64,000 nucleotides of DNA. It comes from a virus (Duplodnaviria > Heunggongvirae > Uroviricota > Caudoviricetes). The notes beneath the pieces are model-generated. The model saw nothing but the letters and a program-made list of their open reading frames with translations. It was not told the origin of the DNA and ran no database searches. Below, piece after piece: positions 16,967 to 31,795 of this stretch (positions within the stretch are counted from its first letter, which is position 1; the number at the start of each line of letters is the position of its first letter). The position numbers and the translations under genes were made by a program. The DNA lies in IMG/VR virus record IMGVR_UViG_3300044984_001938, one strand, 5' to 3'.

Positions 16967-17024
16967 TAGGATGCGTTCAGCAAATACAACAATTCAAATG
17001 ATAATTGAAAAATAAGCATCCTGT
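16967..17024 (+). ncRNA. CAGCA-family end-paired RNA, copy 1
   Basis: AGGATGC/GCATCCT stem, then CAGCAA. Confidence 0.65.
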
Positions 17025-17032
17025 TATATTTT

Positions 17033-17107
17033 ACTCCGGTCGTCTAGTGGCTAGGACGCCAGCCTTTCAAGTTGGAGAAGCGGGATCGAAACCCGTTCGG
17101 AGTACCA
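17033..17107 (+). tRNA. trnE: tRNA-Glu(UUC)
   Basis: CCAGC-CTTTCAA-GTTGG; CCA. Confidence 0.92.
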
Positions 17108-17114
17108 AGTTTAT

Positions 17115-17200
17115 GGAGTAGACGCCTGAGAGGAAGGGCTCCCGGCTGTAACCCGGAGGACAGTACTGCTGTAGAGGTTCGAACCCTCTCTGCTCCACCA
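17115..17200 (+). tRNA. trnY: tRNA-Tyr(GUA)
   Basis: CTGTAAC loop, long variable arm, CCA. Confidence 0.9.
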
Positions 17201-17346
17201 AGAATCAAGTGGAAAGCAAGAGCCACAAAGTAAACAGTAGAACGTCATGGTCGTGCGGCGTTCTTTGCAGTGTATACTGCGTCAGCCCCGAAAAGGTTGA
17301 GAAACACTGGGGTAAGAGTCCCAACGTAGCACAATCACTAATTTAT

Positions 17347-17425
17347 TCCGCAGAACCCGAGCATGGTGCATGGGCTTGACTGTTAATCAATGACTAGCTG
17401 GGATCGTTACCCAGATGCGGAGCCA
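17347..17425 (+). tRNA. trnN: tRNA-Asn(GUU)
   Basis: TTGA-CTGTTAA-TCAA; CCA. Confidence 0.88.
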
Positions 17426-17431
17426 TTTTTT

Positions 17432-17505
17432 GCCCTTTTCGTATACCGGTATTACGCCTGTTTTGTAATCAGGATAAGGCAGTTCAATTCTGTCAAGGGG
17501 CACCA
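17432..17505 (+). tRNA. trnT: tRNA-Thr(UGU)
   Basis: TTTGTAA loop; CCA. Confidence 0.82.
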
Positions 17506-17597
17506 TCTATAAGCACACACTCTACGCCCTCTTGGAATGGGAGATAGTGTCCATAGCACTGAAGAAAAGTTTAAGTGTGCTTATAAATGTTCAGTTT

Positions 17598-17657
17598 TAG
17601 GATGCTTCCAGCAAATAAATACAACTTTACTTGAAATGAAGCAAAAAAGCATCCTGT
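17598..17657 (+). ncRNA. CAGCA-family RNA, copy 2
   Basis: AGGATGCT/AGCATCCT stem, then CAGCAA. Confidence 0.65.
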
Positions 17658-17665
17658 ATTATAAT

Positions 17666-17743
17666 GCGCCTCTAGCTCAGCTGGATTAGAGCACTGGTTT
17701 ACGAAGCCGGGGGTCGGGAGTTCGAACCTCTCGGGGCGCACCA
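17666..17743 (+). tRNA. trnR: tRNA-Arg(ACG)
   Basis: TTACGAA loop; CCA. Confidence 0.92.
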
Positions 17744-17747
17744 ATCG

Positions 17748-17821
17748 GCTCTTATAGGTAAATGAAATACTGACACTGTGGTATAGTGTAGTCGGAAGTT
17801 TGATTCTTCCTAGGAGCTCCA
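17748..17821 (+). tRNA. trnT: tRNA-Thr(GGU)
   Basis: ACACT-GTGGTAT-AGTGT; U73; CCA. Confidence 0.8.
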
Positions 17822-17827
17822 TTTAAT

Positions 17828-17903
17828 GGTAATATAGCATAGCGGCTAATGCAACTGCTTCATATGCAGTCAATCGTTGGTTCGAGTCCAATTATTACCA
17901 CCA
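17828..17903 (+). tRNA. tRNA-Met or Ile2 (CAU)
   Basis: ACTGC-TTCATAT-GCAGT; CCA. Confidence 0.88.
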
Positions 17904-17904
17904 A

Positions 17905-18066
17905 TCAAAGATTGTTAATAAAGCGTAAGGCTTTGTTGATATTAGTAAAGTATTGCATATGATATTCACAAAAGAATCTATCATATACAATCATACAACA
18001 AACACCATCACATAATGATAGGTGAAAGTTTAAACCTCCTGGAGTAACATTCTTGTAGGTTTTCAT
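17905..18066 (-). pseudogene. small frameshifted ORF inside the tRNA array
   Basis: The ATG after TAAATA is one base out of frame with ...TYKNVTPGGLNFHLSLCDGVCC...FINNL*. Confidence 0.3.
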
Positions 18067-18081
18067 GTAAGTATTTATTAT

Positions 18082-18155
18082 ACCCGGTTAGCACAAAAGT
18101 AGAGCATTCGACTGATAATCGAAAGACAGAGGAGCGTTACCTCTACCGGGTACCA
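18082..18155 (+). tRNA. trnI: tRNA-Ile(GAU)
   Basis: TTCGA-CTGATAA-TCGAA; CCA. Confidence 0.9.
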
Positions 18156-18165
18156 ATTTTTAGTA

Positions 18166-18235
18166 GCGACTATAGTTCAAGCGAACAAGGCCCTCTATGG
18201 GTACGAGGTGCAGGTATCAAGTCCTGTTAGTTGCG
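18166..18235 (+). pseudogene. degenerate tRNA-like element, nominal anticodon CUA
   Basis: GCGACTA/TAGTTGC acceptor stem, D-stem and T-like arm; no CCA. Confidence 0.4.
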
Positions 18236-18315
18236 AATAATGGGGGCAGCAGAGGGCTCTTAGGAAGATAGTGCGGCTCTCAGAAAACCTACATAAATGA
18301 ATTTAGAAAGAATTT

Positions 18316-18393
18316 GGGGAATGGGACTGCTTAGGGTGGTCACTTCACTTGCAATGAAGATACAGATCGGGGCAGAACCGATATTCTCCACCA
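18316..18393 (+). tRNA. trnA: tRNA-Ala(UGC)
   Basis: CTTCA-CTTGCAA-TGAAG; G3:U70; CCA. Confidence 0.9.
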
Positions 18394-18437
18394 TTTAAGT
18401 TCAATATGGATATGCTCCACCAGGCATAAATAACTAT

Positions 18438-19298
18438 ATGGAACAACAAATATTATGCAGTTGTATATACTGCAAGGAAGTTAAATCAGTAAAGGGTATT
18501 CATACTCATGTAGCCCGAGCGCATTTAGGAGCCACCCACTACTCAAGTGGACATAATGGAAAATATAATGACACCGTAAGCCGTGCTAAACTCAAAGATA
18601 GTCGTGATAAGTTTCACAATTTGAAACTTGGTGAACTTACGAAATTTTCCGTGGAGTGTGAAAAATGCAATGTAGCACTTAGTGTAACCGAACGAGCTTT
18701 ACAATTTCCTACTAAGGCAAAATACTTTTGTTCTTTGACATGCAGTAATAGTCATGTTGTAACTGAAGAACACAGACAACAAACATCTGCTACCTTGAGT
18801 GGTAGAATTTACAAACCGCCAGAAGAGATAACAAAAAATTGTATTAATTGTAATACACCGTTTACATATACGAAACACTATACAAAACGGGATAGGAAGA
18901 CATGTAGCCAATCTTGCTCAACAACACACAGTAACATTAGCAGAGGCCTAGCAGCAAGATTGCGAAGGCCTGCCCTAACAAATTACCGGACAGATTGTAA
19001 CTTTAAGTTTAGTCTAAATGACTATCCGACAGAATTTGACTTTACATTAGTCGAACAGTACGGATGGTATAAAGCGAAAAATCGTGGAGACCATTTAACT
19101 GGGGTAAGTAGGGATCATATGGTTAGCGTCCGCTACGGATTTGATAATAATATTGCATCAGAAATTATAAGGCATCCGGCAAATTGCATGTTAATGCAGC
19201 ATAATAAGAATTCATCTAAACATAGTAAATGTTCAATCTTATTAGATGAGTTACTAACTAGAATTAAAGAGTGGGATATTAAATATAGTGGGAGTTAG
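18438..19298 (+). CDS. HNH homing-type endonuclease with N-terminal Zn fingers
   Basis: CxxC repeats; SRDHMVSV...HPANC. Confidence 0.75.
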   Translation: MEQQILCSCIYCKEVKSVKGIHTHVARAHLGATHYSSGHNGKYNDTVSRAKLKDSRDKFHNLKLGELTKFSVECEKCNVALSVTERALQFPTKAKYFCSLTCSNSHVVTEEHRQQTSATLSGRIYKPPEEITKNCINCNTPFTYTKHYTKRDRKTCSQSCSTTHSNISRGLAARLRRPALTNYRTDCNFKFSLNDYPTEFDFTLVEQYGWYKAKNRGDHLTGVSRDHMVSVRYGFDNNIASEIIRHPANCMLMQHNKNSSKHSKCSILLDELLTRIKEWDIKYSGS

Positions 19299-19325
19299 TT
19301 ACTCCAGCGGTCCACCAAAGTTAAT

Positions 19326-19402
19326 GTATCTCTAGTGTAATGGCAGCACACCGGCCTCCAAAGTCGGTCAGTCAGGGTTCGAGTCCTTGGGGGGGTACGC
19401 CA
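19326..19402 (+). tRNA. trnW: tRNA-Trp(CCA)
   Basis: CTCCAAA loop; CCA. Confidence 0.88.
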
Positions 19403-19410
19403 AAGTTTAT

Positions 19411-19489
19411 CTGTGTGTGAGAAAGTCTGGTTTAATCTACCCGCCTTGGAAGTGGGAAATCGCAGGTTCAAATCCTGCCACACAGACCA
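19411..19489 (+). tRNA. trnP: tRNA-Pro(UGG)
   Basis: CCCGC-CTTGGAA-GTGGG; CCA. Confidence 0.9.
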
Positions 19490-19496
19490 AAAATAT

Positions 19497-19571
19497 ATCT
19501 CTCAGGTGTAATGGGCTGCACATCGGTCTCCAAAACCGAAGGACAGGGATCGTAGCCCTGGGGGGATGCCA
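19497..19571 (+). tRNA. trnW: tRNA-Trp(CCA) #2
   Basis: TCGGT-CTCCAAA-ACCGA; CCA. Confidence 0.85.
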
Positions 19572-19656
19572 TAAAACTCGCCTTGATTGATGGCGTACAA
19601 TGAGATAAGTAGTCAATCACAAATTTCGGGGGATAACTGTTATCCTCCACCAAATT

Positions 19657-19715
19657 TAGGATGCTTCCAGCAAGAAAAACAAACTTTATTGAAAAAAAGC
19701 AAAACAGCATCCTGT
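19657..19715 (+). ncRNA. CAGCA-family RNA, copy 3
   Basis: AGGATGCT/AGCATCCT stem, then CAGCAA. Confidence 0.65.
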
Positions 19716-19720
19716 TAAAT

Positions 19721-19797
19721 GCGTGATTAGTTCAGCATGGAAGAACGCTACAGTGACATTGTAGAGGTCAAAAGTTCAAATCTTTTATCACGTACCA
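19721..19797 (+). tRNA. trnV: tRNA-Val(GAC)
   Basis: CTACA-GTGACAT-TGTAG; CCA. Confidence 0.9.
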
Positions 19798-19818
19798 AGA
19801 AAATAAGATAAATAATTA

Positions 19819-19894
19819 CGCGGTGTATGGAAGTGGTCATCCGCTTGGTCTCATAAGCCAAGAATCGCAGGTTCAAATCCTGCCATCGCAACCA
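19819..19894 (+). tRNA. trnM: initiator tRNA-fMet(CAU)
   Basis: C1:A72 mismatch; CTCATAA loop; CCA. Confidence 0.85.
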
Positions 19895-19938
19895 ATCAAC
19901 TTCTCAAGTTTCATTGAGGAATGTATAAAAGAAATTCT

Positions 19939-20012
19939 CTCGGTATGGTGAAATGGTATCACCCGACGTTTGGGACGTTGAAGCGTAGGTTCGATTCCTG
20001 CTACCGAGACCA
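19939..20012 (+). tRNA. trnP: tRNA-Pro(UGG) #2
   Basis: TTTGGGA loop; CCA. Confidence 0.9.
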
Positions 20013-20055
20013 ATCAATTACGGTATCCATAGTGTAAAGGTTCCACTAATTTTAT

Positions 20056-20130
20056 GTTGAGTATGGTGTAATGTTAGCACTTGTGTTTGTGGCACACACG
20101 GAGCGAGTTAGATTCTCGTTACTCGACCCA
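20056..20130 (+). tRNA. trnH: tRNA-His(GUG)
   Basis: G-1:C73; TGTGT-TTGTGGC-ACACA; CCA. Confidence 0.87.
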
Positions 20131-20163
20131 TCATGTTCGTTTACGATAATTACCCCCAAACAT

Positions 20164-20240
20164 GCCCTGGTAGACAAATTGGCAAAGTCAACGGTCTAAG
20201 AAGCCGTAATCTGCGAGTTCAAGTCTCGCCCAGGGCACCA
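20164..20240 (+). tRNA. trnL: tRNA-Leu(AAG), short variable arm
   Basis: ACGGT-CTAAGAA-GCCGT; CCA. Confidence 0.8.
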
Positions 20241-20249
20241 AAAGATTTT

Positions 20250-20364
20250 TAGGATGAGTACAGCAAAAGTAAACTTCTCTTACCATCGCCGAAAGGCACT
20301 CAAGAGGCCGGCCCGCTGGGGGCGTGTCGTGGGTTCGAGTCCCGGCTTAGACACAACATCCTGT
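20250..20364 (+). ncRNA. CAGCA-family RNA, copy 4 (contains a T-arm-like hairpin)
   Basis: AGGATG/CATCCT stem, CAGCAA, internal GGGTTCGAGTCCC. Confidence 0.6.
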
Positions 20365-20372
20365 TTTATTAT

Positions 20373-20451
20373 GCCCCGCTGGACAAATCTGGCAAAGTCG
20401 CTTCCTTCAAAAGGAAGATTGTTCTCGGTTCGAATCCGAGGCGGGGTACCA
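20373..20451 (+). tRNA. trnL: tRNA-Leu(CAA), short variable arm
   Basis: CTTCC-TTCAAAA-GGAAG; CCA. Confidence 0.85.
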
Positions 20452-20456
20452 GTTAT

Positions 20457-20548
20457 GGAAGATGATGCAGCGGGGATGGTCCTGCGACCGGCTTTGAATA
20501 CCGGGTTCTCAGAAATGGGATGGGGTTCGACTCCTCCGTCTTCCGCCA
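20457..20548 (+). tRNA. trnS: tRNA-Ser(UGA)
   Basis: Long variable arm, G73, CCA. Confidence 0.85.
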
Positions 20549-20909
20549 AAGTTTTGTAAGCTACATGGGTTGACCACAACGCCACGCGCCAAGGTAAGGT
20601 AGCTGAAGTGTAAGTAGCAGGTTTGGTCATGCTTACACACTAAAAAGTTTTGTAGTCTAGCGGTTAGCTAGGGTAAAGGCGTTGCGGGCTTAAATGTCGT
20701 TAAACATCGTAGCGCAACTTAATGATAATGTGTGCAGCCTACTACAAATTCAGTTTTGAGATAGACGATGTAGTAGAGTCCCTTGTGCGCTAGTGCCCTA
20801 TTTCTTGAGCATGACACCCCAGTAGCAACATAAGGTCGTATAAACTCCTACAACCGAGACAAGCCAGTGAGTCCTTAAGAAAGATAGTTGGTCTCTCAAA
20901 AACTCATAT

Positions 20910-20985
20910 CCCGACTAAGCTAACCTAGTGGAAGCGCCTGTCTGAAGAACAGGAGGGCTTGGAGCGTAACCAAGAGTCGGGACCA
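20910..20985 (+). tRNA. trnF: tRNA-Phe(GAA)
   Basis: CCTGT-CTGAAGA-ACAGG; CCA. Confidence 0.88.
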
Positions 20986-21098
20986 AAATAAAATTGTTTT
21001 AATATTGTTACTGCAAGGCCTAACTCGTTCAAATCAAGCTGTGTCTCATCTCTAAACGAGATAACAATAAAAATATAACATAATTAACATTTTACATT

Positions 21099-21734
21099 AT
21101 GCATAAATATAACATGCATACTATATCTCTTTTTTATAAAATGGCATTAATGTCATTGGATGAGGCACTCTCATTGGAGCACGTTGCATTACAGCTTAGT
21201 GATAATTCTGTAGTGGTTGAGGTTGGGTGTTTTATGGGCGGCAGTGCAGCAATAATAGCACATACAAATAAATCAATATCGGTGCATTCTTTTGATTTAT
21301 TCGAGGACGATACCCATACTGCCTATAGAGGCCCGAACCAGTATAAGTTATTTTCGCAACTTTTACAAGAAAAGAAGCCGGTTAGATCATTAGATAATGT
21401 GCGTAAAATCTTATCTTACAGTAATATTCATTTATATAAAGGTAGAAGTCCGGTTGATTTTGTAAATTGGGATACACCTATTGATATGTATTTTGAAGAT
21501 AGTTTACACACTAATCCGTCATTATCCATGAATATTAAGTTTTGGGAACCAAAACTTAAGGAAGGGGGGTATTTATTAATGCATGATTGCAGACCATTTC
21601 TTCCTAAGGATCACTTTCATAGATTTATTGATGTAGAATACGAAAGTGAAAAATTATTAGCTAACGGATATAAAAAAATATCACATGTTGGTGCTCTTTT
21701 GGTTTTACAAAAATGCATTTCGACGGTAAAGTAA
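21099..21734 (+). CDS. class I SAM methyltransferase (Methyltransf_24-like)
   Basis: VVEVGCFMGGS; IDMYFEDSLH; GGYLLMHD. Confidence 0.85.
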   Translation: MHKYNMHTISLFYKMALMSLDEALSLEHVALQLSDNSVVVEVGCFMGGSAAIIAHTNKSISVHSFDLFEDDTHTAYRGPNQYKLFSQLLQEKKPVRSLDNVRKILSYSNIHLYKGRSPVDFVNWDTPIDMYFEDSLHTNPSLSMNIKFWEPKLKEGGYLLMHDCRPFLPKDHFHRFIDVEYESEKLLANGYKKISHVGALLVLQKCISTVK

Positions 21735-22306
21735 AATTTCTATTAGATTTAGAATCAACTCAAGAATTTATCTCTTTGAGACATTGTATATTAAATTTTG
21801 AATGGCAAAAACATAGTAATCTATTCAATATAGCTGATATTGCATTTAAGAATTCCGGGGTAATTCAATTTAATTATAATAAATTAATGAGGCACATTAG
21901 ACCACAACCTGTCTATGTGAAAGACATTAATACATTAATTGATGTTGCTATGCCGGTTGTAGAAAACATCAAATCTATATTTCCGAAACATAATGTATTA
22001 AAATCACATTTTGTAGCACTTAACCCCAGCGGAAGACAATACCCCCACATAGACAGTATATATTACCATAATTTTTGCACTAGACTAGTGATACCTATAA
22101 CAGGTAACGATAAGTGTGTATCTTTTATAGGAAATGAGGAATTTAATTTATCCATCGGGCAATTGTATGAGATTAATAATAAATTAATACATTATAGTGA
22201 AAATTTAGGTAACAGTATTAGAACATATATGTTTGTAGACATATATGATGAAGGAAAGGCCTATTCATTGAATGGGCATTACAAATATTCGGGATTAGTG
22301 TTGTAA
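21713..22306 (+). CDS. AspH-like hydroxylase
   Basis: PHIDSIYYH...RLVIPI...YEINNKLIH. Confidence 0.75.
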   Translation: MHFDGKVKFLLDLESTQEFISLRHCILNFEWQKHSNLFNIADIAFKNSGVIQFNYNKLMRHIRPQPVYVKDINTLIDVAMPVVENIKSIFPKHNVLKSHFVALNPSGRQYPHIDSIYYHNFCTRLVIPITGNDKCVSFIGNEEFNLSIGQLYEINNKLIHYSENLGNSIRTYMFVDIYDEGKAYSLNGHYKYSGLVL

Positions 22307-22375
22307 AAGTTTCATTGAACAATTGAAACATTAGAAGGGTTGAGTTCAAATCCAACCTATGGTACCAAATTATTT

Positions 22376-22436
22376 CTCGCTATAGTTCAACTGGATAGAA
22401 CAATTTTCTCCTAAGGAATAGATGATAGTTCAAGTC
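22376..22436 (+). pseudogene. 5' part of split tRNA-Arg(CCU)
   Basis: Acceptor 5' strand, D-arm, anticodon arm with CCT, and T-stem 5' strand. Confidence 0.8.
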
Positions 22437-22455
22437 AACATTTAATAAATAATGT

Positions 22456-23115
22456 ATGAGATATAATTTATTAATACCCGGTTGGATGTCTGTTGTTGAC
22501 TTAGAGATACTTAACCGGCTTGCTAGTTATGTTCCTGAAAACGGAAGCATTTTGGAAGTTGGTTGTTTTGTAGGCAGGTCCACATCTGCATTATTTTCAG
22601 GAAAACCTGCTAGTGCAACTTTAGAAGTGGTAGACACATTTGACGTTAGTAATCCATATGGATTACACATTTCTGATAATAATATTAAAGGTAGTCAATA
22701 TTACAAAAACAAAATTAAAGAAATAGCTAAAAATACAGGGAGTTGGGAAGAATCATTTCGGTTTTGTTTAACCCCAGAAGTTGCAGATCACATACAGATA
22801 TCAGTTGCATCAAGTTTGGAATATAATTTAACAAAACAATTTGATATGGTTTTTATAGATGCAAATCATGCGGTTAATCATGTATTACATGATATCAAGA
22901 AATTTGCATCTAAAAATACATTATTAGTGGGAGACGATTTTTCCAAAACTTATTTAGGAGTTGCTGAAGCATTAGCACTAGTTCATTTTGAAATACCTAG
23001 CACACTTATTGCTCCGTCAAATTCTAAAATTTGGATCATGGTTCCCGAGGCAGGGTACTGGAATAATTTGTTCCTAACAGTGCCCGGATTGCTAGTTATA
23101 CAAGTTACTGTCTAA
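22456..23115 (+). CDS. class I SAM methyltransferase (Methyltransf_24-like)
   Basis: ILEVGCFVGRST; FDMVFIDANH; VGDDF. Confidence 0.85.
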   Translation: MRYNLLIPGWMSVVDLEILNRLASYVPENGSILEVGCFVGRSTSALFSGKPASATLEVVDTFDVSNPYGLHISDNNIKGSQYYKNKIKEIAKNTGSWEESFRFCLTPEVADHIQISVASSLEYNLTKQFDMVFIDANHAVNHVLHDIKKFASKNTLLVGDDFSKTYLGVAEALALVHFEIPSTLIAPSNSKIWIMVPEAGYWNNLFLTVPGLLVIQVTV

Positions 23116-23188
23116 AAACACTGGACTTAACTGTACCCAAACATGATTTGATAACCGAATAGTACCGGGCTAAAAAGCCGGGTTCTGC

Positions 23189-23213
23189 GAGTTCAAATCT
23201 ATCTAGTGAGACC
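23189..23213 (+). pseudogene. 3' part of split tRNA-Arg(CCU)
   Basis: AGTTCAAAT-CTATC-TAGTGAG-ACCA complements the 5' part. Confidence 0.8.
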
Positions 23214-23276
23214 AACACCAATCTAGATTTTAGTTTGGTTGACACAAAATACTAATTGTAGTATAATAAACATTAT

Positions 23277-23348: not shown

Positions 23349-23384
23349 CAGGGGGTAAATACAACGACAGAAAAGGAGTTTAAC

Positions 23385-25431: not shown

Positions 25432-25688
25432 GACACATAGCAGAAAATGATAGAGTTATCTGCAACAAGATCATTAAAAAATTAATTATGTAATTTCTCG
25501 CTAAGACAACATCAAGCACGATTTTGTTGCAAGGTGATAACAGTCCGCAATCTTGTGAAAGACAGCGTAGCGAAAAGTTATATATAAGCTCTAGTGTAAA
25601 TGAGCACCCGCCCCTAGTACTAGTCTGGAATCAAGGGTGTAGAACACGCAGCCCACAAGGCAGATGCAAGTGAGTTTATATATAACAT

Positions 25689-25774
25689 GGATGCTTATAC
25701 CGTTAAGGAGACGGTTCCGGCTGTAACCCGGACGCCGCGAGGCTCTGATGGATCGTTACCATCAGCATTCACCA
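25689..25774 (+). tRNA. trnY: tRNA-Tyr(GUA) #2
   Basis: CTGTAAC loop; long variable arm; CCA. Confidence 0.87.
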
Positions 25775-25904
25775 GATTTCGGAGACTGAAACTTATCAGT
25801 TGTTTATCCCCCGCGAGCCGGCGGCAAAGGTAATCAAAGATAAGCGAATAATGTGGACGGCACAAGAGGCATCCCTTTTGTGTAGGCTGTCTCCAATTTT
25901 TATT

Positions 25905-25982
25905 GCTTCGTTAGCATAGCTGGCCTAATGCGCTACCCTGTCACGGTAGAGATCAGGGGTTCAAATCCCCTACGAGGCGCCA
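25905..25982 (+). tRNA. trnD: tRNA-Asp(GUC)
   Basis: CTACC-CTGTCAC-GGTAG; CCA. Confidence 0.92.
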
Positions 25983-26389
25983 AAGAGCAGCGGATAAGTT
26001 ACATTATCCAGTATGAGTCATCGGGGTATCCTGCAGAAAATCCCTGGGACGAGCAATAGTACAATCATGCAATGTAACAGGAGAGCAGTGATCTGCTTCA
26101 CGGGGAATCCTCACAGAATGTCCTCTACCATATAAAAACACACTAGCCGGCAACCTGAATCAGAACGGCTCTGCTATAATAGGCAGCGTATACAAGTCAG
26201 TGTGTTTCTATATGGTATCATAGTTCAACAGATTACTCAACAGTATCTTACTCTCAGGGTGGTGACTGAGCAACAGACGCTGCACAGAGGAATATAATAG
26301 TTTCCCGCACTAGGGTCGTTCTAGTCTGTTGAACTATGGTCTCATAAGGAGTAATTACCCTTAACCATACTCGGGAGTCATGACCTGAG

Positions 26390-26473
26390 GAACTCGCGGT
26401 CTTCTAATGGCTAGGAAAAACCCGTTATTGGGTTTAATGCAGGTTTCGAAATCCTGCCCGCACGAGTTCGCCA
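26390..26473 (+). ncRNA. non-canonical tRNA-like RNA with extended acceptor stem
   Basis: GAACTCG-CGG / CCG-CA-CGAGTTC-GCCA; D-, anticodon- and T-like arms. Confidence 0.5.
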
Positions 26474-26564
26474 TATAAAAACATCTTATTAATCGTCACG
26501 GAGGCAGGCATGCTGGAGGCGTAATCGGGGATAAGATGTTTCTATATGGTAATTATCAAAAAAG

Positions 26565-26795
26565 TTTTGTAAGTGTCAGCAAGAGAAAGTCACGCTATAC
26601 TGTATTCTTCGAAGGTACTTTATAGTAGAAGGCAAATGGGTTCGATCCCCACCCGGGCACATAGTGTCCGAGGTAGAAAGGTCTATACGCTAGACTAGTA
26701 TCCCAAGTGACATGCCCTGGAAAACCTCGGTGTGAATTGCTAGCGTTGCACATCTAAATAATAGGAACTAACCTGAGGGTCCTATGCTTACAAAT
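26565..26795 (+). ncRNA. long CAGCA-family RNA (variant closing stem)
   Basis: TTTGTAAG/CTTACAAA stem, 3 nt, CAGCAA; internal GGTTCGATCC. Confidence 0.55.
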
Positions 26796-26804
26796 TCAAT
26801 ATAT

Positions 26805-26879
26805 GCGGGATTGGTGTAGTGGTAGCACAGTAGATTTCCATTCTTCTAGTAACGGTTCGACTTCCGTTATCCCGCTCCA
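26805..26879 (+). tRNA. trnG: tRNA-Gly(UCC)
   Basis: TTTCCAT loop; U73; CCA. Confidence 0.85.
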
Positions 26880-27145
26880 AGTTTATTCAAAATGTTCATT
26901 GCTCGTGTTCTTAGTCGGTTTGTGAATTCACTTTCCGATAAGACACCCTTAGCAAGATTACATTTTCTGCAAGTTACTTGTAGATTATCGTATGTAGTTG
27001 GACCTCCTTTTGATTCTGGGATAACATGATCCATGTGTATCTCAGCATCACGCAGGTCCTCATCACAAAAAACACAATAATAGCCATCTCGTTCTAATAC
27101 TCTACGGCGTAGATGTAATGGAATACGGGCTTTGTTCTGTAACAT
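26867..27145 (-). CDS. small HNH endonuclease
   Basis: RDGYYCVFC...HMDHVIP..GG.T..DNLQVTCRKCNLAKG. Confidence 0.92.
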   Translation of the reverse strand: MLQNKARIPLHLRRRVLERDGYYCVFCDEDLRDAEIHMDHVIPESKGGPTTYDNLQVTCRKCNLAKGVLSESEFTNRLRTRAMNILNKLGAG

Positions 27146-27227
27146 AACATTATTTATATAATGGTCAAGCTGATACTAAATTAGTTTGACAACAATTACT
27201 ATTTGATATATAATAGTAACAAGATTT

Positions 27228-27312
27228 GCGACTGTGGTGAAATAGGTAGACACAAGAGACTTAAAATCTCTCGCTTAACCGCGTGCCGGTTCGATTCCGG
27301 CCAGTCGCACCA
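27228..27312 (+). tRNA. trnL: tRNA-Leu(UAA)
   Basis: CTTAAAA loop; long variable arm; CCA. Confidence 0.92.
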
Positions 27313-27321
27313 AGAATGAAT

Positions 27322-27398
27322 GCCCCTTTAATTAAATCAGGTTATAATGCCGGCCTCATAAGCCGTTTTTCTGGGTTCAAATCCCGGCGGGGGTACCA
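27322..27398 (+). tRNA. tRNA-Met or Ile2 (CAU)
   Basis: CTCATAA loop; CCA. Confidence 0.75.
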
Positions 27399-27406
27399 TG
27401 TATTTT

Positions 27407-27498
27407 GGAGATGTGGCCGAGTGGTCTAAGGCAGCAGGTTGCTAACCTGTCGTGTCAAGTAATTGGCACCGTGAGTTCAAATCTCACCGTCTCCGCCA
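27407..27498 (+). tRNA. trnS: tRNA-Ser(GCU)
   Basis: TTGCTAA loop; long variable arm; CCA. Confidence 0.92.
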
Positions 27499-27528
27499 AG
27501 AGTATGTAGTTTTTAACAAGGAAACAAA

Positions 27529-27690
27529 ATGAAACCCAGTAAGACATTTAAGTTAACAAAGCGCACGAAAACAATTCGTGCATTGATTGGATTTAAGGAT
27601 ATGGATCAAAGTCATGCATTCAAGCGCATGATGATTCAAGCGCAATTGGCCAGTGAAACTCGCCCTGCCAGAGAAAAGTCTGATAAATAA
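27529..27690 (+). CDS. 53-aa basic hypothetical protein
   Basis: AAGGA RBS; MKPSKTFKLTKRTK...EKSDK*. Confidence 0.65.
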   Translation: MKPSKTFKLTKRTKTIRALIGFKDMDQSHAFKRMMIQAQLASETRPAREKSDK

Positions 27691-27695
27691 TATAT

Positions 27696-27771
27696 GTGGG
27701 TGTGCGCTGAATAGTTAGGCACCTGACTGCAAATCAGTATAATGCAGGTGCAATTCCTGTCACCCACTCCA
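27696..27771 (+). tRNA. trnC: tRNA-Cys(GCA)
   Basis: CTGCAAA loop; U73; CCA. Confidence 0.88.
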
Positions 27772-27775
27772 GTTT

Positions 27776-27835
27776 TAGGATTCTTTCAGCAAGCTAAAAA
27801 TTTCTACCATTAATCAGAAAAAAAGCGAATCCTGT
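27776..27835 (+). ncRNA. CAGCA-family RNA, copy 5
   Basis: AGGATTC/GAATCCT stem, then CAGCAA. Confidence 0.65.
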
Positions 27836-27843
27836 TGTATATT

Positions 27844-27866
27844 GCCCTGGTGGCGAAATTGGTAGA
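27844..27866 (+). pseudogene. 5' fragment of split tRNA-Leu
   Basis: GCCCTGG plus a Leu-type D-arm; pairs with CTAGGGC at 29010-16. Confidence 0.7.
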
Positions 27867-27878
27867 GTTAATTATTTC

Positions 27879-27958
27879 GGGCGGCTGACATATGCAAATT
27901 GGTACAGCTACTGCGTTTAGACCGCAGGTTTTTCCGAGTTCGAGTCTCGGGCCGCCCA
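27879..27958 (+). tRNA. trnL: tRNA-Leu(UAG), no CCA
   Basis: CTGCG-TTTAGAC-CGCAG; 7-bp acceptor stem. Confidence 0.7.
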
Positions 27959-27960
27959 CA

Positions 27961-28860
27961 TTAAATAAGATTCTTGAAGACGGTCCAATCAAGTTGGTGT
28001 TTATTCAAGATGAGCACTCTTACGACATTGAATGTTTCAGCCCATTTGATTTTATCGCAGTCCATAAACCCGTGATACGGGTTTGGATTGTTTATCAAGA
28101 AATCATTTTTCGGGTCTAAGTATATATCATATTCTGGTAGATAAAAGTCAGGATAATATGTCCTAGGTTTACCTGTCGGATCGATATACCGAAGTCCTTT
28201 AGGCTTAATCCACTTAATATTATTTGCATCCATACTTTGAGCAACAGTGAGTTCATATGATGAACCTAACTTAACACCATTGTATTCAATGCAATTCTTT
28301 TTAATCCCTGCATTAGACTTATTGGCTGACATTAAAATTGATCTGCATGACAAAGAGCAACTTTTACTACTACCGGGAAAAAATTTATTACATGCACAAC
28401 ATTGTGCTATTTTGGTGTATAGAGGTTTTTCTACTTTGACTGGTTTGGGTTGTTTAGCGCGCCCACTATTATTAAGAATGGCAGATTCTCTACGCGAATC
28501 GTTCCCTAATTTACGAGAAGCATGGCCAGCAGGCCGCAGTTTGTTGGAGTTAACTGCTGAACATGATTGATTGCAAAATTTATTTTTTCTTTTGTCGTAT
28601 ATCAAGGGTGAATTGCATTGAGAACATCTTGCAGGGTGATCGGCATATGCACTGACGACTTTTGATCTTTTGCTGACACAATATTGTTTATATTTGGGTG
28701 CTGCTAATTTTCCAGCTAATTTAGCTCTTTCGGCCCCCTCAACAGTATGTGTTTTTATGAAATGGCTAAAAATTCCTCTAGCTGATTTGACTTCTCTGCA
28801 TCTGATGCAGGAAACAAGAGGTGATTTGAATTCTTTTTCTTCTGACATATATTTCTCCAT
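27961..28860 (-). CDS. PD-(D/E)XK (TnsA-like) homing-type endonuclease with Zn fingers
   Basis: YYPDFYLPEYDIYLDPK; CxxC repeats. Confidence 0.8.
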   Translation of the reverse strand: MEKYMSEEKEFKSPLVSCIRCREVKSARGIFSHFIKTHTVEGAERAKLAGKLAAPKYKQYCVSKRSKVVSAYADHPARCSQCNSPLIYDKRKNKFCNQSCSAVNSNKLRPAGHASRKLGNDSRRESAILNNSGRAKQPKPVKVEKPLYTKIAQCCACNKFFPGSSKSCSLSCRSILMSANKSNAGIKKNCIEYNGVKLGSSYELTVAQSMDANNIKWIKPKGLRYIDPTGKPRTYYPDFYLPEYDIYLDPKNDFLINNPNPYHGFMDCDKIKWAETFNVVRVLILNKHQLDWTVFKNLI

Positions 28861-28979
28861 GATAAATAGTTGCGAACCAGACAGCAATGACTCCATGCAT
28901 TGTTGATTACTCACTGATAATGCGTAATCTTATGGTTCAATTATATTTATCATTGGAAAATTTATTTCAAAAATAAAAT

Positions 28980-29020
28980 TCGCAAAGAGCGTGTCGGTTC
29001 GAGTCCGACCTAGGGCACCA
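28980..29020 (+). pseudogene. 3' fragment of split tRNA-Leu
   Basis: Variable arm, T-arm GTCGGTTCGAGTCCGAC, then CTAGGGC-ACCA. Confidence 0.7.
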
Positions 29021-29171
29021 AAAAACAGTTAACAACTACTGCAAAAGGTTGTATTAACACAAAGAAAGTAGATACTATATGAAACGAAAATCTCGTAAAC
29101 TATAGTGTCAATCGTAGACCCCGTATATGGTCAACTGGTTGGCACATTAAAGACAATTTAATATGCACAAC

Positions 29172-29246
29172 CCCTTCAAGATGTTTTGATAGCATACCGG
29201 ACTCTTAATCCGAGAAGGCTCAGTTTGACTCTGAGTGGAGGGACCA
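29172..29246 (+). tRNA. trnK: tRNA-Lys(CUU)
   Basis: CTCTTAA loop; CCA. Confidence 0.85.
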
Positions 29247-29250
29247 TATA

Positions 29251-29325
29251 CGGGGTATAATTCAATGGCTAGAATAACCGGTTTTTACCCGGTCTATCAC
29301 GGTTCGAGTCCGTGTGCCCCGACCA
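29251..29325 (+). tRNA. trnK: tRNA-Lys(UUU)
   Basis: ACCGG-TTTTTAC-CCGGT; CCA. Confidence 0.88.
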
Positions 29326-29408
29326 GATGCAAACACATTCCGCCTGTGCCGACACGATGAGAAACATAGGTTCAAGTAGTGTGTTTACATATGGTATTAA
29401 AGAATAAT

Positions 29409-29496
29409 GGAAGTGTGTCTGAGTGGTCTAAGGTGCCTGACTTGAAATCAGGCGTGTCGAAAGGCACCGTGGGTTCGAATCCTACCACTTCCGCCA
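29409..29496 (+). tRNA. trnS: tRNA-Ser(UGA) #2
   Basis: CCTGA-CTTGAAA-TCAGG; CCA. Confidence 0.93.
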
Positions 29497-29582
29497 ACTT
29501 AAAGTAGTAAGTCAATATGCCCGAAATAAGCAAGAAGCATTTGACTTAATAGAAAAAATGCAGTACAATACACAGATAGTAA

Positions 29583-29656
29583 GCCCTGTTAGTTTAATGG
29601 TAGAACTCCGTCTTTACATGGCGGTTGCGGCAGTTCAATTCTGTCACAGGGTACCA
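29583..29656 (+). tRNA. trnV: tRNA-Val(UAC)
   Basis: TTTACAT loop; CCA. Confidence 0.9.
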
Positions 29657-29665
29657 AGTTAGTAC

Positions 29666-29739
29666 GCGGGATTAGTTTAATGGCCAAATGAAACCTTGCC
29701 AAGGTTTAGTCAGGAGTTCGATTCTCCTATCCCGCTCCA
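29666..29739 (+). tRNA. trnG: tRNA-Gly(GCC)
   Basis: AAACC-TTGCCAA-GGTTT; CCA. Confidence 0.88.
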
Positions 29740-29752
29740 AATAATTTATAAT

Positions 29753-30298
29753 ATGGCCCATCAACAACAATTTGATTTTATTCAGCGATTGAAATTACAG
29801 TTCCCAACTCACTTCTTTAATAAGAAAGTGTTAGAAGTAGGTAGTCTAAACATCAACGGCACCATTAGAATATTCTTCACCGAATGTGATTATCTGGGAA
29901 TTGATGTTGGCCCAGGCAACGATGTTGATTTAGTATGTGAAGGTCAAAGATTAGATTACCCAAATGAAACATATGATACTGTAGGTAGTTGTGAGTGTTT
30001 TGAACATAACCCCTATTGGGTAGAGACATTTAACAACATGTACAGGCTGACTAAATCTACTGGTTTGGTGTTTATGTCTTGTGCTACAACAGGCAGAGGT
30101 GAGCATGGCACAACCCGTACTAGTCCACAAGATAGTCCGTTAACAGTTACAAATGGTTGGGAATATTACAAAAATTTAACTGAACAAGATTTCAGAAAAT
30201 ACATTGATATTGACAGTATGTTTAGTGAATATGAATTTCAAGTGGGTGCGCCGCATCACGATTTATATTTTTATGGCATTAAAAAGGAGATAGTATGA
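29753..30298 (+). CDS. class I SAM methyltransferase (type 11-like)
   Basis: VLEVGS, GIDVGPG, YDTV..CECFEH; start re-placed after the tRNA. Confidence 0.85.
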   Translation: MAHQQQFDFIQRLKLQFPTHFFNKKVLEVGSLNINGTIRIFFTECDYLGIDVGPGNDVDLVCEGQRLDYPNETYDTVGSCECFEHNPYWVETFNNMYRLTKSTGLVFMSCATTGRGEHGTTRTSPQDSPLTVTNGWEYYKNLTEQDFRKYIDIDSMFSEYEFQVGAPHHDLYFYGIKKEIV

Positions 30299-30513
30299 TT
30301 GAATCTAGGGCAAGGTACACTAGCCAAGAGGCTGTTGACATGATTGGTAATCGGTTTGAAATGGTGCTAATCGCATCAGCTAGAGCTAAGGAAATCAAGC
30401 GTGGGTATAAGTCTAAATTAGATCATCCCACAACTGCGGGACCAACTGTTATGGCATTGATGGAAATTGAAAAGGGTCTAGTTGGACGAGAGTACCTTAA
30501 ACAAGTACGATAA
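30295..30513 (+). CDS. rpoZ: RNA polymerase omega subunit homologue
   Basis: ARYT..A...IGNRFEMVLIASARA.EI...ALMEIEKG. Confidence 0.9.
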   Translation: MIESRARYTSQEAVDMIGNRFEMVLIASARAKEIKRGYKSKLDHPTTAGPTVMALMEIEKGLVGREYLKQVR

Positions 30514-30519
30514 TAATGC

Positions 30520-30759
30520 TAGGGATGGCTACAGCATACAAAAAACTACTCAACTCAAAGCTATAGAAGGTGGTCGCAGGGCACAGTAGAAATACTGTTC
30601 TAGAAATAGACGCTTAAGGAATGGATGACGGCACGGAAAGACATGCTATGTGTTCACTACAGAAAACCGAGTGTGAATAGTCAACATGAACTGTTGATAG
30701 GGTCTGGGTGCTTTAATTAACCAGACCAGAAAATAAACAAATTGGCACGATCATCCCGT
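30520..30759 (+). ncRNA. long CAGCA-family RNA
   Basis: GGGATG(G)/(T)CATCCC stem, CAGCA at the same spacing; fills the intergenic gap. Confidence 0.55.
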
Positions 30760-30767
30760 TAAATTAT

Positions 30768-31556
30768 ATGCAAGTTCTATTACAAGATATCAGTACATAC
30801 GAAACCCGAACAATCAGTCAAGCATGTATGCTTACTAATACAAAGGTACATCGTACTAGTTTGGGAATGTTACAAACCCTCTTTGACTTCAAAGCTGAAT
30901 TATGCCGAGGGGACTTAATGCCTGTTGGTAGTGTTGAATTTGTAAGAGAATGTTTTGAGATTATGGGTATTCACCAGGTGCCCTTATGGTACTCATACCC
31001 TAAGGTGTTGAATTCATTCTTACACAGGCGTATCGTTGTACGCAGCGAAATTTATGTACGAAACATGCTACAATCACAACTAATAGTGCCTGCATTAAGT
31101 CCGATCTTTATCAAGCCTGCTGCTAAGTTAAAGTTGTTCAATGGATTTATATTCTATCCCGATAAAGATAGAGCAGAGTACGATGAACATGATAGGGAGC
31201 AGTGGGATATTGTGATGGCTTCTCGTGGCAAGGAACTGATTTTTGTTAGCAATGTAGTAGACTTCATTAGTGAATGGCGCTATTACATTGATGACAATAA
31301 GATTGTTGGTTCAGCAAGATATGATGATGGTCCTGATGAGGCCTTATCGCCGGAACTCACTGTAGTACACCAGATGATTGAAGCAATGCAGACAGATCAC
31401 CCGTATACATTAGATGTAGGGAGACTATCAACTGGTGAGACCGCATTAGTAGAAACCAACGATGCATGGGCAATCGGTTTGTACAGTAGAGCATTAGAAC
31501 CCAAGGTTTATTTAAACTTTTTGGGTAAACGATGGAAATCAATTGTTGACAAGTAA
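30768..31556 (+). CDS. ATP-grasp protein, R2K/DUF4343-like
   Basis: PVGSVEFV, IFIKP, SEWRYYI, LDVG...LVETNDAWAIGLY. Confidence 0.8.
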   Translation: MQVLLQDISTYETRTISQACMLTNTKVHRTSLGMLQTLFDFKAELCRGDLMPVGSVEFVRECFEIMGIHQVPLWYSYPKVLNSFLHRRIVVRSEIYVRNMLQSQLIVPALSPIFIKPAAKLKLFNGFIFYPDKDRAEYDEHDREQWDIVMASRGKELIFVSNVVDFISEWRYYIDDNKIVGSARYDDGPDEALSPELTVVHQMIEAMQTDHPYTLDVGRLSTGETALVETNDAWAIGLYSRALEPKVYLNFLGKRWKSIVDK

Positions 31557-31574
31557 ACAAAACTAAGCTATAAT
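31546..31574 (+). promoter_or_regulatory. sigma70 promoter for the CAGCA RNAs and DUF2828 gene
   Basis: TTGACA-17-TATAAT. Confidence 0.85.
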
Positions 31575-31595
31575 ACATGCTTAGACACTGAGATT

Positions 31596-31729
31596 TAGGA
31601 TAGGTGCAGCAATCAAATTAATCAACTTGGAATGCTACTTTGACCCTGGACATCAAACTCCAGACTAAGTAGATAGAGTGGTTTCGACAGTTCCCCTCGA
31701 TAAAAGAAAAAAGTAGATAACTATCCTGT
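31596..31729 (+). ncRNA. CAGCA-family RNA, copy 7
   Basis: AGGATAG/CTATCCT stem, then CAGCAA. Confidence 0.65.
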
Positions 31730-31735
31730 TAAATT

Positions 31736-31795
31736 TAGGTTAGCATCAGCAACATAATTTGTGTCTGCTAGGACATTAAACTAGTATTAACCTGT
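31736..31795 (+). ncRNA. CAGCA-family RNA, copy 8
   Basis: AGGTTAG/TTAACCT stem, then CAGCAA. Confidence 0.65.

What the first reader, a model, noticed from the sequence alone, without database searches (positions are those of the whole stretch)
16967..31795. Nine-member CAGCA RNA family linked to a Ro60/TROVE-like gene: candidate new RNP system
Seen: nine elements start at 16967, 17598, 19657, 20250, 26565, 27776, 30520, 31596 and 31736. Each has a roughly 7-bp stem pairing the 5' and 3' ends, exactly 3 nt, then CAGCA(A). Stems covary (AGGATGC/GCATCCT, AGGATTC/GAATCCT, AGGATAG/CTATCCT, AGGTTAG/TTAACCT, TTGTAAG/CTTACAA) while interiors range from about 35 to 220 nt. They occupy tRNA-like slots in the array, and two lie between a sigma70 promoter and the DUF2828 TROVE/vWA gene. 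Known: Ro60 proteins bind Y RNAs through an end-paired stem, carry variable effector modules, and cluster with RNA-repair genes. Inference: a phage Ro-like protein uses a diversified set of Y-like RNAs sharing a CAGCA handle. I cannot check whether Rfam already has this motif.
Basis: partly seen in the sequence, partly recalled or inferred. Interest (0 to 1): 0.9.

Follow-up and report, generated by a model that had tools for sequence, protein, structure and literature searches.

The report
Ro60-like protein with CAGCAA-handle RNAs
This jumbo phage carries nine small RNA genes that share one stem-plus-CAGCAA "handle", next to a gene for a ring protein shaped like the Ro60 autoantigen; the same RNA-gene pairing recurs in very different phages, so the RNAs are probably that protein's undescribed "Y RNA" partners.

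Summary
All nine elements exist on the + strand: a 7-bp stem joins the two ends, followed by 3 nt, then CAGCA(A/U), a 32-213 nt interior and a 3' G-U-U tail.

The linked gene (31819-33234) carries Pfam DUF2828+DUF7788. Its AlphaFold model matches only Ro60 structures over its full length.

The same RNA module lies beside DUF2828 genes, on the gene's strand, in 74/80 relatives, 11-13 of 16 unrelated phages and 56/79 bacterial or archaeal contigs. The unrelated phages include Felix O1-like, Listeria, Staphylococcus, mycobacterial, Campylobacter, Bacillus and cyanophages.

Five DUF2828-positive phage genomes have 13 of 14 hits next to the gene. Five DUF2828-negative phages (T4, T5, Bxz1, phiKZ, SPO1) have none.

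Interiors carry tRNA parts: anticodon-loop mimics in short copies, and T-arm or YrlA-like domains in long ones.

Rfam has no family for it. The only hit is sub-threshold, to Dictyostelium Class I RNA, which has the same architecture.

Binding and expression are untested here. This is a new variant of the known Ro60-Y RNA kind. This scan has already noted the same family on many other genomes, and two papers guessed at Y RNAs without defining them.

The parts
16968..17025 (+). CAGCAA-handle RNA 1 (short). Stem AGGAUGC/GCAUCCU, spacer GUU, CAGCAA, tail GUU. Lies between tRNA-Gln and tRNA-Glu.
   Evidence: R1 50.1 bits; RF01414 29.4 bits
17599..17658 (+). CAGCAA-handle RNA 2 (short). The interior hairpin has an anticodon-like loop, CUUGAAA. 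Lies just before tRNA-Arg.
   Evidence: (49 bits)
19658..19716 (+). CAGCAA-handle RNA 3 (short). Lies just before tRNA-Val.
   Evidence: 55.6 bits
20251..20365 (+). CAGCAA-handle RNA 4 (115 nt). 6-bp stem; the interior has a T-arm-like hairpin (GGGUUCGAGUCCC). Lies between two tRNA-Leu genes.
   Evidence: (24.2 bits, not in the seed)
26567..26796 (+). CAGCAA-handle RNA 5 (230 nt). Atypical stem UUGUAAG/CUUACAA and no G-U tail. T-loop-like GGGUUCGAUCCCC inside. Lies before tRNA-Gly. This is the least certain member.
   Evidence: conserved in 8 relatives; not found by R1
27777..27836 (+). CAGCAA-handle RNA 6 (short). Stem AGGAUUC/GAAUCCU. Lies between tRNA-Cys and tRNA-Leu.
   Evidence: 46.6 bits; RF01414 31.5 bits, full-length alignment
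30522..30760 (+). CAGCAA-handle RNA 7 (239 nt). Stem GGGAUGG/UCAUCCC with one G-U; core CAGCAU. Lies upstream of the R2K ATP-grasp gene.
   Evidence: the same position in relatives has covarying stems GGGATGA/GGGATGT
31546..31574 (+). Consensus sigma70-type promoter, TTGACA-17-TATAAT (12/12). It would drive RNA 8, RNA 9 and the DUF2828 gene.
31597..31730 (+). CAGCAA-handle RNA 8 (134 nt). Stem AGGAUAG/CUAUCCU.
   Evidence: 26.4 bits, not in the seed
31737..31796 (+). CAGCAA-handle RNA 9 (short). Stem AGGUUAG/UUAACCU with a G-U. Its stem ends 26 nt (its GUU tail 23 nt) before the DUF2828 start codon.
   Evidence: 30.3 bits
31819..33234 (+). Ro60-like protein, 471 aa: a HEAT-repeat ring plus a vWA domain with a MIDAS motif. 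Pfam DUF2828 + DUF7788.
   Evidence: invariant D276, S278, S280, T348, D380; phrog_850
33914..36039 (+). Neighbouring RNA healing-and-sealing genes (context): phosphoesterase 33914-34468, Rnl1-type RNA ligase 34437-35339, Pnk-like P-loop kinase 35560-36039.

Best explanation
The nine elements are genes for small non-coding RNAs that serve as the Y-RNA-type partners of the phage's Ro60-like protein (31819-33234).

Shown:
- They form one family, defined by a 7-bp helix joining the 5' and 3' ends, 3 nt, an invariant single-stranded CAGCAA (rarely CAGCAU) and a 3' G-U-U tail.
- This module lies beside DUF2828/DUF7788 genes, on the gene's strand, in phages of many bacterial phyla.
- The protein has the Ro60 fold.

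Inferred:
- The ring protein docks on the stem plus the CAGCAA handle. This is the same position as the GNCGAA motif of YrlA and the CGAA motif of phiLo Yrl RNAs.
- The variable interior is the 'cargo': anticodon stem-loop mimics in short copies, T-arm or tRNA-like domains in long copies. It would present a tRNA look-alike to enzymes that act on tRNA.
- In this phage the RNAs are made as part of the long tRNA-array transcripts and, for RNAs 8 and 9, from a consensus promoter together with the protein's mRNA. They are then cut out at the U-rich flanks.
- The likely biological role is protecting or managing RNA during infection and countering host defence. The gene sits between the tRNA array and an RNA repair set (phosphoesterase, Rnl1 ligase, kinase). 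A homologue (Bas63 gp130) is a published counter-defence factor.
For: Family and structure:
- establish the elements and the fold.
- The stem is 98% paired against 61% in shuffles, and all pairs show double changes.
- Of CAGCAA hexamers near the gene, 63% (own clade) and 45% (other lineages) have a perfect 7-bp partner in register, against 1-4% on the opposite strand near the gene (1-8% across all background classes; 13-23% for far + strand sites).
- G-U is favoured over A-C on the + strand only.

Linkage:
- Density is 0.8-1.5 elements per kb in the 1.5 kb upstream of the gene on its strand (0.62/kb downstream in the diverse phages; 0.01 and 0.13/kb downstream in the other two sets), against 0.00-0.04 on the opposite strand.
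- All 40 covariance-model hits in 80 genome contigs are on the gene strand.
- 13 of 14 hits in five whole phage genomes lie next to the gene.
- There are no hits and no DUF2828 in T4, T5, Bxz1, phiKZ and SPO1 (positive control).

Protein:
- Foldseek's top 13 PDB hits are all Ro60, full length, E about 1e-8.
- The best five Swiss-Prot AFDB hits are Ro60 proteins; telomerase p80 (rank 6) and human telomerase protein 1 (rank 12) also match.
- The MIDAS residues are invariant.

Cargo:
- 39 of 157 short copies have an anticodon-loop-like hairpin, against 1.3 expected.
- 44 of 199 long copies have a full T-arm, against 0.1 expected.
- Sub-threshold YrlA matches fall inside long copies.

Context and literature:
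- RNA repair genes follow the Ro60-like gene.
- Bas63 gp130 is DUF2828+DUF7788 with three such RNAs downstream, and it counters the Ppl defence system (bioRxiv 10.1101/2024.10.10.617714).
- In Listeria phage CKA15, non-coding regions upstream of the homologue are very highly transcribed (PMC12282133). The CAGCAA array there has its own strong promoter.
Against: - There is no expression or binding evidence for this phage. The metatranscriptome contigs were uninformative.
- In T7, Bas63 gp130 expressed alone restored growth on a Ppl host. The RNAs are therefore not needed for that phenotype.
- Some DUF2828 phages show no element within 4 kb (Erwinia pEa49, Ochrobactrum OC) or only an ambiguous one (Vibrio nt-1). 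23 of 79 contig loci have none by the strict pattern.
- Seven of the nine copies here lie 1 to 15 kb from the gene (only RNAs 8 and 9 are adjacent), so linkage in this genome alone is loose.
- Element 5 is atypical.
Confidence: 0.7

Rival explanations
1. The elements act in cis. They are protein-binding operators or leader structures on the DUF2828 mRNA and on tRNA precursors, used for autoregulation or processing control, and are not stable trans-acting RNAs.
For: In the phage's own clade the last element ends 26-42 nt before the start codon in nearly every locus. RNAs 8 and 9 lie between the promoter and the gene.
Against: In UPIE, SEP9, KP2025, wV8 and Bas63 the arrays lie downstream of the gene. 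Seven copies here lie 1-15 kb away between tRNAs. The interiors carry tRNA-like domains typical of YrlA. This rival does not exclude protein binding.
Confidence: 0.15
2. The elements are tRNA-mimic decoys or processing punctuation of phage tRNA operons. They work without the Ro60-like protein, and the linkage only reflects a shared 'RNA island'.
For: They occupy tRNA slots. They carry anticodon-loop and T-arm mimics. DUF2828 genes often adjoin tRNA arrays.
Against: They adjoin DUF2828 even where few or no tRNA genes are annotated in the fetched flanks: none in UPIE, CP30A and Fnu1, and a single tRNA 2.1 kb away in SEP9. They are absent from the tRNA-array phages T4, T5 and Bxz1. The outer stem sequence is shared by all paralogues of a genome but differs between lineages, as expected for one co-evolving reader protein.
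Confidence: 0.1
3. The elements are DNA-level repeats, such as miniature inverted-repeat elements or recombination or homing sites, with no RNA function.
For: They have terminal inverted repeats, variable interiors and multiple copies.
Against: There is a strict strand bias relative to the gene: 40 of 40, and 1.5 against 0.00 per kb. Compensatory changes keep the pairing. G-U is tolerated but A-C much less so. An asymmetric single-stranded motif sits at a fixed register.
Confidence: 0.02

Closest known systems
Ro60 (Rsr/TROVE) with Y RNAs, especially bacterial and phage YrlA (Rfam RF02553; Chen et al. 2014, PMC4201824) and Thermus phage phiLo phiRo60 with Yrl1/Yrl2 (PMC12135203; PDB 9KOP, 9L5Y)
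   Same: A ring protein of HEAT repeats plus a vWA domain. The RNAs are encoded beside the gene on the same strand. A helix joins the RNA ends, with a conserved motif in the adjoining loop on the 5' side. The long forms have a modular interior with a T-arm/D-arm tRNA-like domain. RNA ligase genes are neighbours.
   Different: The protein is Pfam DUF2828+DUF7788, not TROVE, and has 11-17% identity to the Ro60 structures matched. The handle is N3-CAGCAA, not GNCGAA or CGAA. No element reaches the YrlA threshold. Many members are only about 55 nt long and carry an anticodon-arm mimic or no obvious module. There are up to nine paralogues per genome, spread through a tRNA array.
Class I RNAs of Dictyostelia (Rfam RF01414; Kjellin et al. 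2021, PMC7919456)
   Same: Length of about 55-60 nt. A short helix joins the ends. (U)UACAGCAA lies directly after the 5' strand. The interior is variable and A-rich. The 3' end is C-U-G-U. Six phage elements (four of them this window's short copies) align to the full length of the model at 25-31.5 bits.
   Different: All scores are below the gathering score of 41.5. This window's copies are 1 nt shorter before CAGCAA. Class I RNAs are eukaryotic Pol III-type genes with a DUSE promoter. Their known direct binder is the RRM protein Rnp1A/CIBP. No link to a DUF2828 protein has been reported, and none could be tested here.
Bas63 (Escherichia phage JohannRWettstein) gp130, an anti-Ppl counter-defence protein (bioRxiv 10.1101/2024.10.10.617714)
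   Same: The same Pfam architecture and length. The gene lies directly upstream of a tRNA array that holds three CAGCAA-handle RNAs.
   Different: Identity to the window's protein is only about 38% (Felix O1-like phages). The anti-Ppl effect was obtained with the protein alone in T7. The authors only guessed that some annotated tRNAs might be Y RNAs.

Membership tests
Ro60/TROVE protein family | Ring of HEAT-like repeats followed by a vWA domain (the Ro60 fold) | tested here: met
   AF2 model with pLDDT 91. The top 13 PDB hits are all Ro60, about 510-540 aligned columns, E 1.7e-8 to 2.5e-6, TM 0.37-0.62 (0.53-0.62 for 11 of the 13). Swiss-Prot AFDB agrees.
Ro60/TROVE protein family | Match to the Pfam TROVE domain (PF05731) | tested here: not met
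   Pfam gives only DUF7788 (1.2e-46) and DUF2828 (8.7e-28). A profile search against PDB sequences reaches Ro60 only at E 0.03-0.2.
Ro60/TROVE protein family | MIDAS motif (DxSxS...T...D) in the vWA domain | tested here: met
   D276, S278, S280, T348 and D380 are invariant in 47 sequences.
Ro60/TROVE protein family | Binds Y RNA on the outer surface of the ring | not testable with these tools
   No RNA-protein docking or binding assay is available.
YrlA (Rfam RF02553) | Reaches the family's gathering score (69 bits) | tested here: not met
   No YrlA hit in the window at E<=5. Long elements of UPIE, KP2025 and EFDG1 score 34-45 bits.
YrlA (Rfam RF02553) | tRNA-like T-arm and D-arm domain closed by a basal helix | tested here: inconclusive
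   Elements 4 and 5 have a T-loop-like hairpin. 44 of 199 long family members have a full T-arm. The short copies have none.
YrlA (Rfam RF02553) | GNCGAA(N)G motif at the Ro-binding site | tested here: not met
   The same position holds N3-CAGCAA.
YrlA (Rfam RF02553) | Encoded next to the Ro60 orthologue | tested here: met
Dictyostelium Class I RNA (Rfam RF01414) | Reaches the gathering score (41.5 bits) | tested here: not met
   25.3-31.5 bits for the four short copies; 28-29.6 bits for two Aeromonas phage copies.
Dictyostelium Class I RNA (Rfam RF01414) | Short helix joining the ends, the 11-nt CCUUACAGCAA next to the 5' strand, and a 3' CUGU | tested here: inconclusive
   The helix, CAGCAA and CCUGU are present. 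UUA precedes CAGCAA in many lineages. The window's copies have GUU, UUC or UUU and one base fewer.
Dictyostelium Class I RNA (Rfam RF01414) | Dictyostelid gene with an upstream DUSE promoter, and binding by Rnp1A | not testable with these tools
   No eukaryotic genome could be searched. The identity of the pull-down protein DDB_G0281243 could not be established.
tRNA | Cloverleaf recognised by ARAGORN or Rfam RF00005 | tested here: not met
   None of the nine is called as a tRNA.

The most novel reading that the evidence does not exclude
The CAGCAA-handle RNAs and the Class I RNAs of social amoebae are one ancient family whose shared handle is read by DUF2828-type Ro60-like proteins. These proteins also exist in eukaryotes. 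In phages, the swappable anticodon-arm and T-arm cargos would make the particle a decoy or sensor for host nucleases that cut tRNAs, coupled to the adjacent RNA repair genes.
Probability: 0.2. Interest if true: 0.9.

Novelty: new variant of a known kind. Interest (0 to 1): 0.75.

Why it matters
Ro60-Y RNA particles are known from animals, some bacteria and a few phages. Here a separate and much more widespread phage branch gets a defined RNA partner.

DUF2828/DUF7788 has homologues in 711 phage records. These include Felix O1-like coliphages and the Listeria P100/A511 group used in food safety.

That gives a concrete, testable handle (stem plus CAGCAA) for three things: finding these RNAs, explaining unannotated gaps and very abundant transcripts in phage tRNA regions, and studying how a published counter-defence protein (Bas63 gp130) works.

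It also offers the first candidate relatives for the Dictyostelium Class I RNAs. Those RNAs were reported as unique to social amoebae and their mechanism is unknown.

Tried and rejected
- Rfam at gathering thresholds found only tRNAs.
- Metatranscriptome evidence: one fish-gut RNA run held 7% of the words. Its contigs (85-99% alike) cover parts of 29.0-33.3 kb, including part of element 7, but cannot show discrete RNAs, ends or even transcription.
- No whole genome is held for the window.
- I could not establish whether the Class I RNA pull-down protein DDB_G0281243 is a DUF2828 protein. The paper is not held, the term is absent from the supplements, and the AFDB searches hide organisms or list no Dictyostelium entry.
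- MAFFT split several 3' stems. The covariance model therefore has 6 of 7 pairs and misses the two elements of about 230 nt.
- A permissive stem search (one mismatch, no tail) gave mostly chance hits and was tightened.
- Single-mismatch typing is diluted by chance hits.
- In five cultured Clostridia genomes R1 scored only 150 of thousands of candidates and found one hit. The pattern search showed longer elements next to several of those genes.

Full report
**Setting.** The window is part of a large phage genome. Relatives are IMG/VR contigs of up to 364 kb. It holds more than 31 tRNA genes on the + strand between 16.9 and 29.7 kb.

**The observation.** Reading the sequence and a pattern search confirm nine elements. 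Their stems start at 16968, 17599, 19658, 20251, 26567, 27777, 30522, 31597 and 31737.

Each has the following layout:
- a U-rich 5' flank;
- a 7-nt 5' strand (AGGAUNN in seven copies);
- 3 nt;
- CAGCAA (CAGCAU in element 7);
- an interior of 32-213 nt;
- the complementary 3' strand;
- G-U-U, except in element 5.

AGGNTNNNNNCAGCA occurs 7 times against 0.44 expected. Unconstrained MFE folds keep the full terminal helix in seven of the nine; elements 4 and 9 lose or re-pair the innermost pair. Elements 8 and 9 lie between a 12/12 consensus promoter (31546-31574) and the gene at 31819-33234.

**The protein.** Pfam gives DUF7788 (1.2e-46) and DUF2828 (8.7e-28), and no TROVE match.

An AlphaFold model built on 47 diverse homologues has pLDDT 91. 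Its 13 best PDB matches are all Ro60 structures, aligned over the whole length at E 1.7e-8 to 2.5e-6. They include Thermus phage phiRo60 (9KOP), Xenopus Ro60, D. radiodurans Rsr and human Ro60. The next matches are isolated vWA domains. Swiss-Prot models agree. The MIDAS residues are invariant.

This is a Ro60-like protein outside the Pfam TROVE family.

Downstream lie a phosphoesterase, an Rnl1-type RNA ligase and a Pnk-like kinase. That echoes the bacterial rsr-yrlA-rtcBA arrangement.

**Linkage.** This is the decisive test.

- *Own clade.* In 80 loci from relatives (72-90% protein identity), 74 have one to four tandem elements. The last typically ends 26-42 nt before the start codon, and there are none on the opposite strand within 1.5 kb upstream.
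- *Unrelated phages with a DUF2828 homologue* (711 phage records have one). Arrays with the same layout but different stem sequences lie directly upstream or downstream of the gene (within about 1.1 kb in most, up to 2.8 kb in Bacillus FADO). The phages are Klebsiella KP2025, E. coli wV8 and Bas63, Synechococcus BUCT-ZZ01, Mycobacterium UPIE, Listeria LP-124/CKA15, Campylobacter CP30A, Staphylococcus SEP9 and Alsa_4, Enterococcus EFDG1, Bacillus FADO, Aeromonas LAh_8 and Fusobacterium Fnu1. In Sinorhizobium phiM12 they lie about 2 kb away.
- *No element.* Erwinia pEa49 and Ochrobactrum OC show none, and Vibrio nt-1 is ambiguous.
- *Covariance model.* R1 was built from 30 short copies of 13 lineages. 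It finds 7 of the 9 window elements, including two that were not in the seed, and nothing else in 64 kb at E<0.05.
- *Whole phage genomes.* In five DUF2828-positive genomes (524 kb), 13 of 14 hits lie next to the gene on its strand.
- *Negative controls.* In T4, T5, Bxz1 (which has a canonical Ro), phiKZ and SPO1 (860 kb) there is no hit and no DUF2828 (positive control).
- *Genome and MAG contigs.* In 80 contigs of many phyla, including one archaeal MAG, all 40 hits are on the gene strand, mostly 50-700 nt upstream. The strict pattern finds an element near the gene in 56 of 79 loci.
- *Density.* 0.84-1.5 per kb upstream of the gene on its strand (0.62 per kb downstream in the diverse phages), against 0.00-0.04 on the opposite strand.

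**RNA rather than DNA.**
- The helix is 98% paired against 61% in shuffles and about 40% when slid, and every pair shows double changes.
- To avoid circularity I took every CAGCAA hexamer near the gene. 63% (own clade) and 45% (other lineages) have a perfect 7-bp partner in the exact register, against 1-4% on the opposite strand there.
- A 3-nt spacer is strongly preferred: 376 against 21.
- CAGCAA is the core, with CAGCAU a minor variant.
- G-U outnumbers A-C 58 to 30 on the + strand, but 37 to 45 in the background.
- Within a genome, the outer five pairs are shared by all paralogues and the inner two differ. Between lineages the outer pairs differ: AGGAU, AGAAG, AGACC, AAGAC, UGNNC. This is what one co-evolving reader protein would produce. 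That last step is inference.

**Cargo.**
- Of 157 distinct short elements, 76 contain a 5-bp hairpin with a 7-nt loop (13.9 expected).
- 39 have an anticodon-loop pattern, YU-NNN-RN (1.3 expected). The most common are CUUUUAA, CUUGAAA and CUUCUAA.
- Of 199 long elements, 44 hold a full T-arm (0.1 expected).
- Sub-threshold YrlA matches (34-45 bits; threshold 69) fall inside long elements of UPIE, KP2025 and EFDG1, with T-arm, short helix and D-arm aligned.

The family is therefore modular, like Y RNAs, and partly mimics tRNA.

**Comparison with known families.**
- Rfam has no family for the module. The only match is sub-threshold, to Dictyostelium Class I RNA: 25-31.5 bits against a threshold of 41.5, with full-length alignments.
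- Class I RNAs are described as about 42-65 nt, with a short helix joining the ends, CCUUACAGCAA next to the 5' strand, a variable interior and a conserved 3' CUGU. They are reported as unique to Dictyostelia (PMC7919456 and its preprint).
- Many phage lineages have UUACAGCAA and the G-U tail.
- DUF2828/DUF7788 proteins exist in eukaryotes. I could not test whether dictyostelids have one or whether it binds Class I RNA.
- Chen et al. 2014 found YrlA next to TROVE-annotated Ro60 genes, including in some mycobacteriophages, with a GNCGAA motif.
- The phiLo study used a CGAA motif.
- Two papers guessed at Y RNAs near DUF2828-type genes without defining them. One is Listeria phage CKA15, where the protein was also found in virions. 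The other is Bas63, where gp130 counters the Ppl defence and works alone in T7. I verified that gp130 is DUF2828+DUF7788 and has three R1 hits just downstream.
- Full-text searches for DUF2828, DUF7788 and the motif found no description of the RNA family.

**Earlier notes of this scan.** The scan has flagged the same family on many other genomes, with similar readings. I treated these as leads only. One gave the Bas63 paper, which I checked.

**Verdict.** Binding, discrete transcripts and function remain untested. This is a new variant of the Ro60-Y RNA kind. It is widespread, absent from Rfam, and has an intriguing but unproven link to an orphan eukaryotic RNA class.

Noticed in passing
L087 3429-3980 (Listeria phage LP-124); equals OR088597.1 about 26,236-26,727 in CKA15 (L089): This stretch matches ROOL RNA (RF03087): 87.4 bits, E 2.8e-16, just under the 99.1 gathering score. 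It corresponds to 'CKA15_059-061', which PMC12282133 reports as by far the most abundant phage transcripts (about 67% late in infection) without identifying them.
   Followed up: partly
window 20457-20544: A tRNA-like gene with a long extra arm. It scores 30.6 bits to tRNA-Sec (below threshold) and is not called by ARAGORN.
   Followed up: no
window 18082-18152: Rfam calls a tRNA here (53.3 bits) that ARAGORN did not list.
   Followed up: no
window 17200-17430, 18150-18400 and 20540-20640: Further ORF-poor, GC-richer stretches inside the tRNA array with long hairpins (for example TGTAAGC...GCTTACA at 20540-20640). They are not CAGCAA elements and remain unexplained.
   Followed up: no
L093 3875-4000 (Aeromonas phage LAh_8): The annotated start of the DUF2828 gene (3875) overlaps two CAGCAA elements (3851-3905 and 3916-3966). 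The protein match begins near 4001, so the start is probably mis-annotated.
   Followed up: no
L081 3747-4178 (Klebsiella phage KP2025): A 432-nt 'tRNA-Arg' feature overlaps the DUF2828 CDS. Rfam places the tRNA at 3747-3818 only, so this is an annotation artefact.
   Followed up: partly
L083 7332-7589 (wV8 gp048, minus strand); L183 30749-30901 (Bas63 gene 137): Small hypothetical ORFs annotated on the opposite strand overlap CAGCAA-handle RNAs. They are probably spurious.
   Followed up: no
L091 65-415; L085 728-1128: Phage-encoded tmRNA in Enterococcus phage EFDG1 (140.6 bits). A two-piece or permuted tmRNA in Synechococcus phage BUCT-ZZ01 (111.9 bits). Both lie a few kb upstream of the DUF2828 gene.
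   Followed up: no
window 30768-31556: An R2K-clade ATP-grasp gene sits between element 7 and the promoter for elements 8 and 9. Several methyltransferase genes are interspersed in the tRNA array (21099-21734, 22456-23115, 29696-30298).
   Followed up: no
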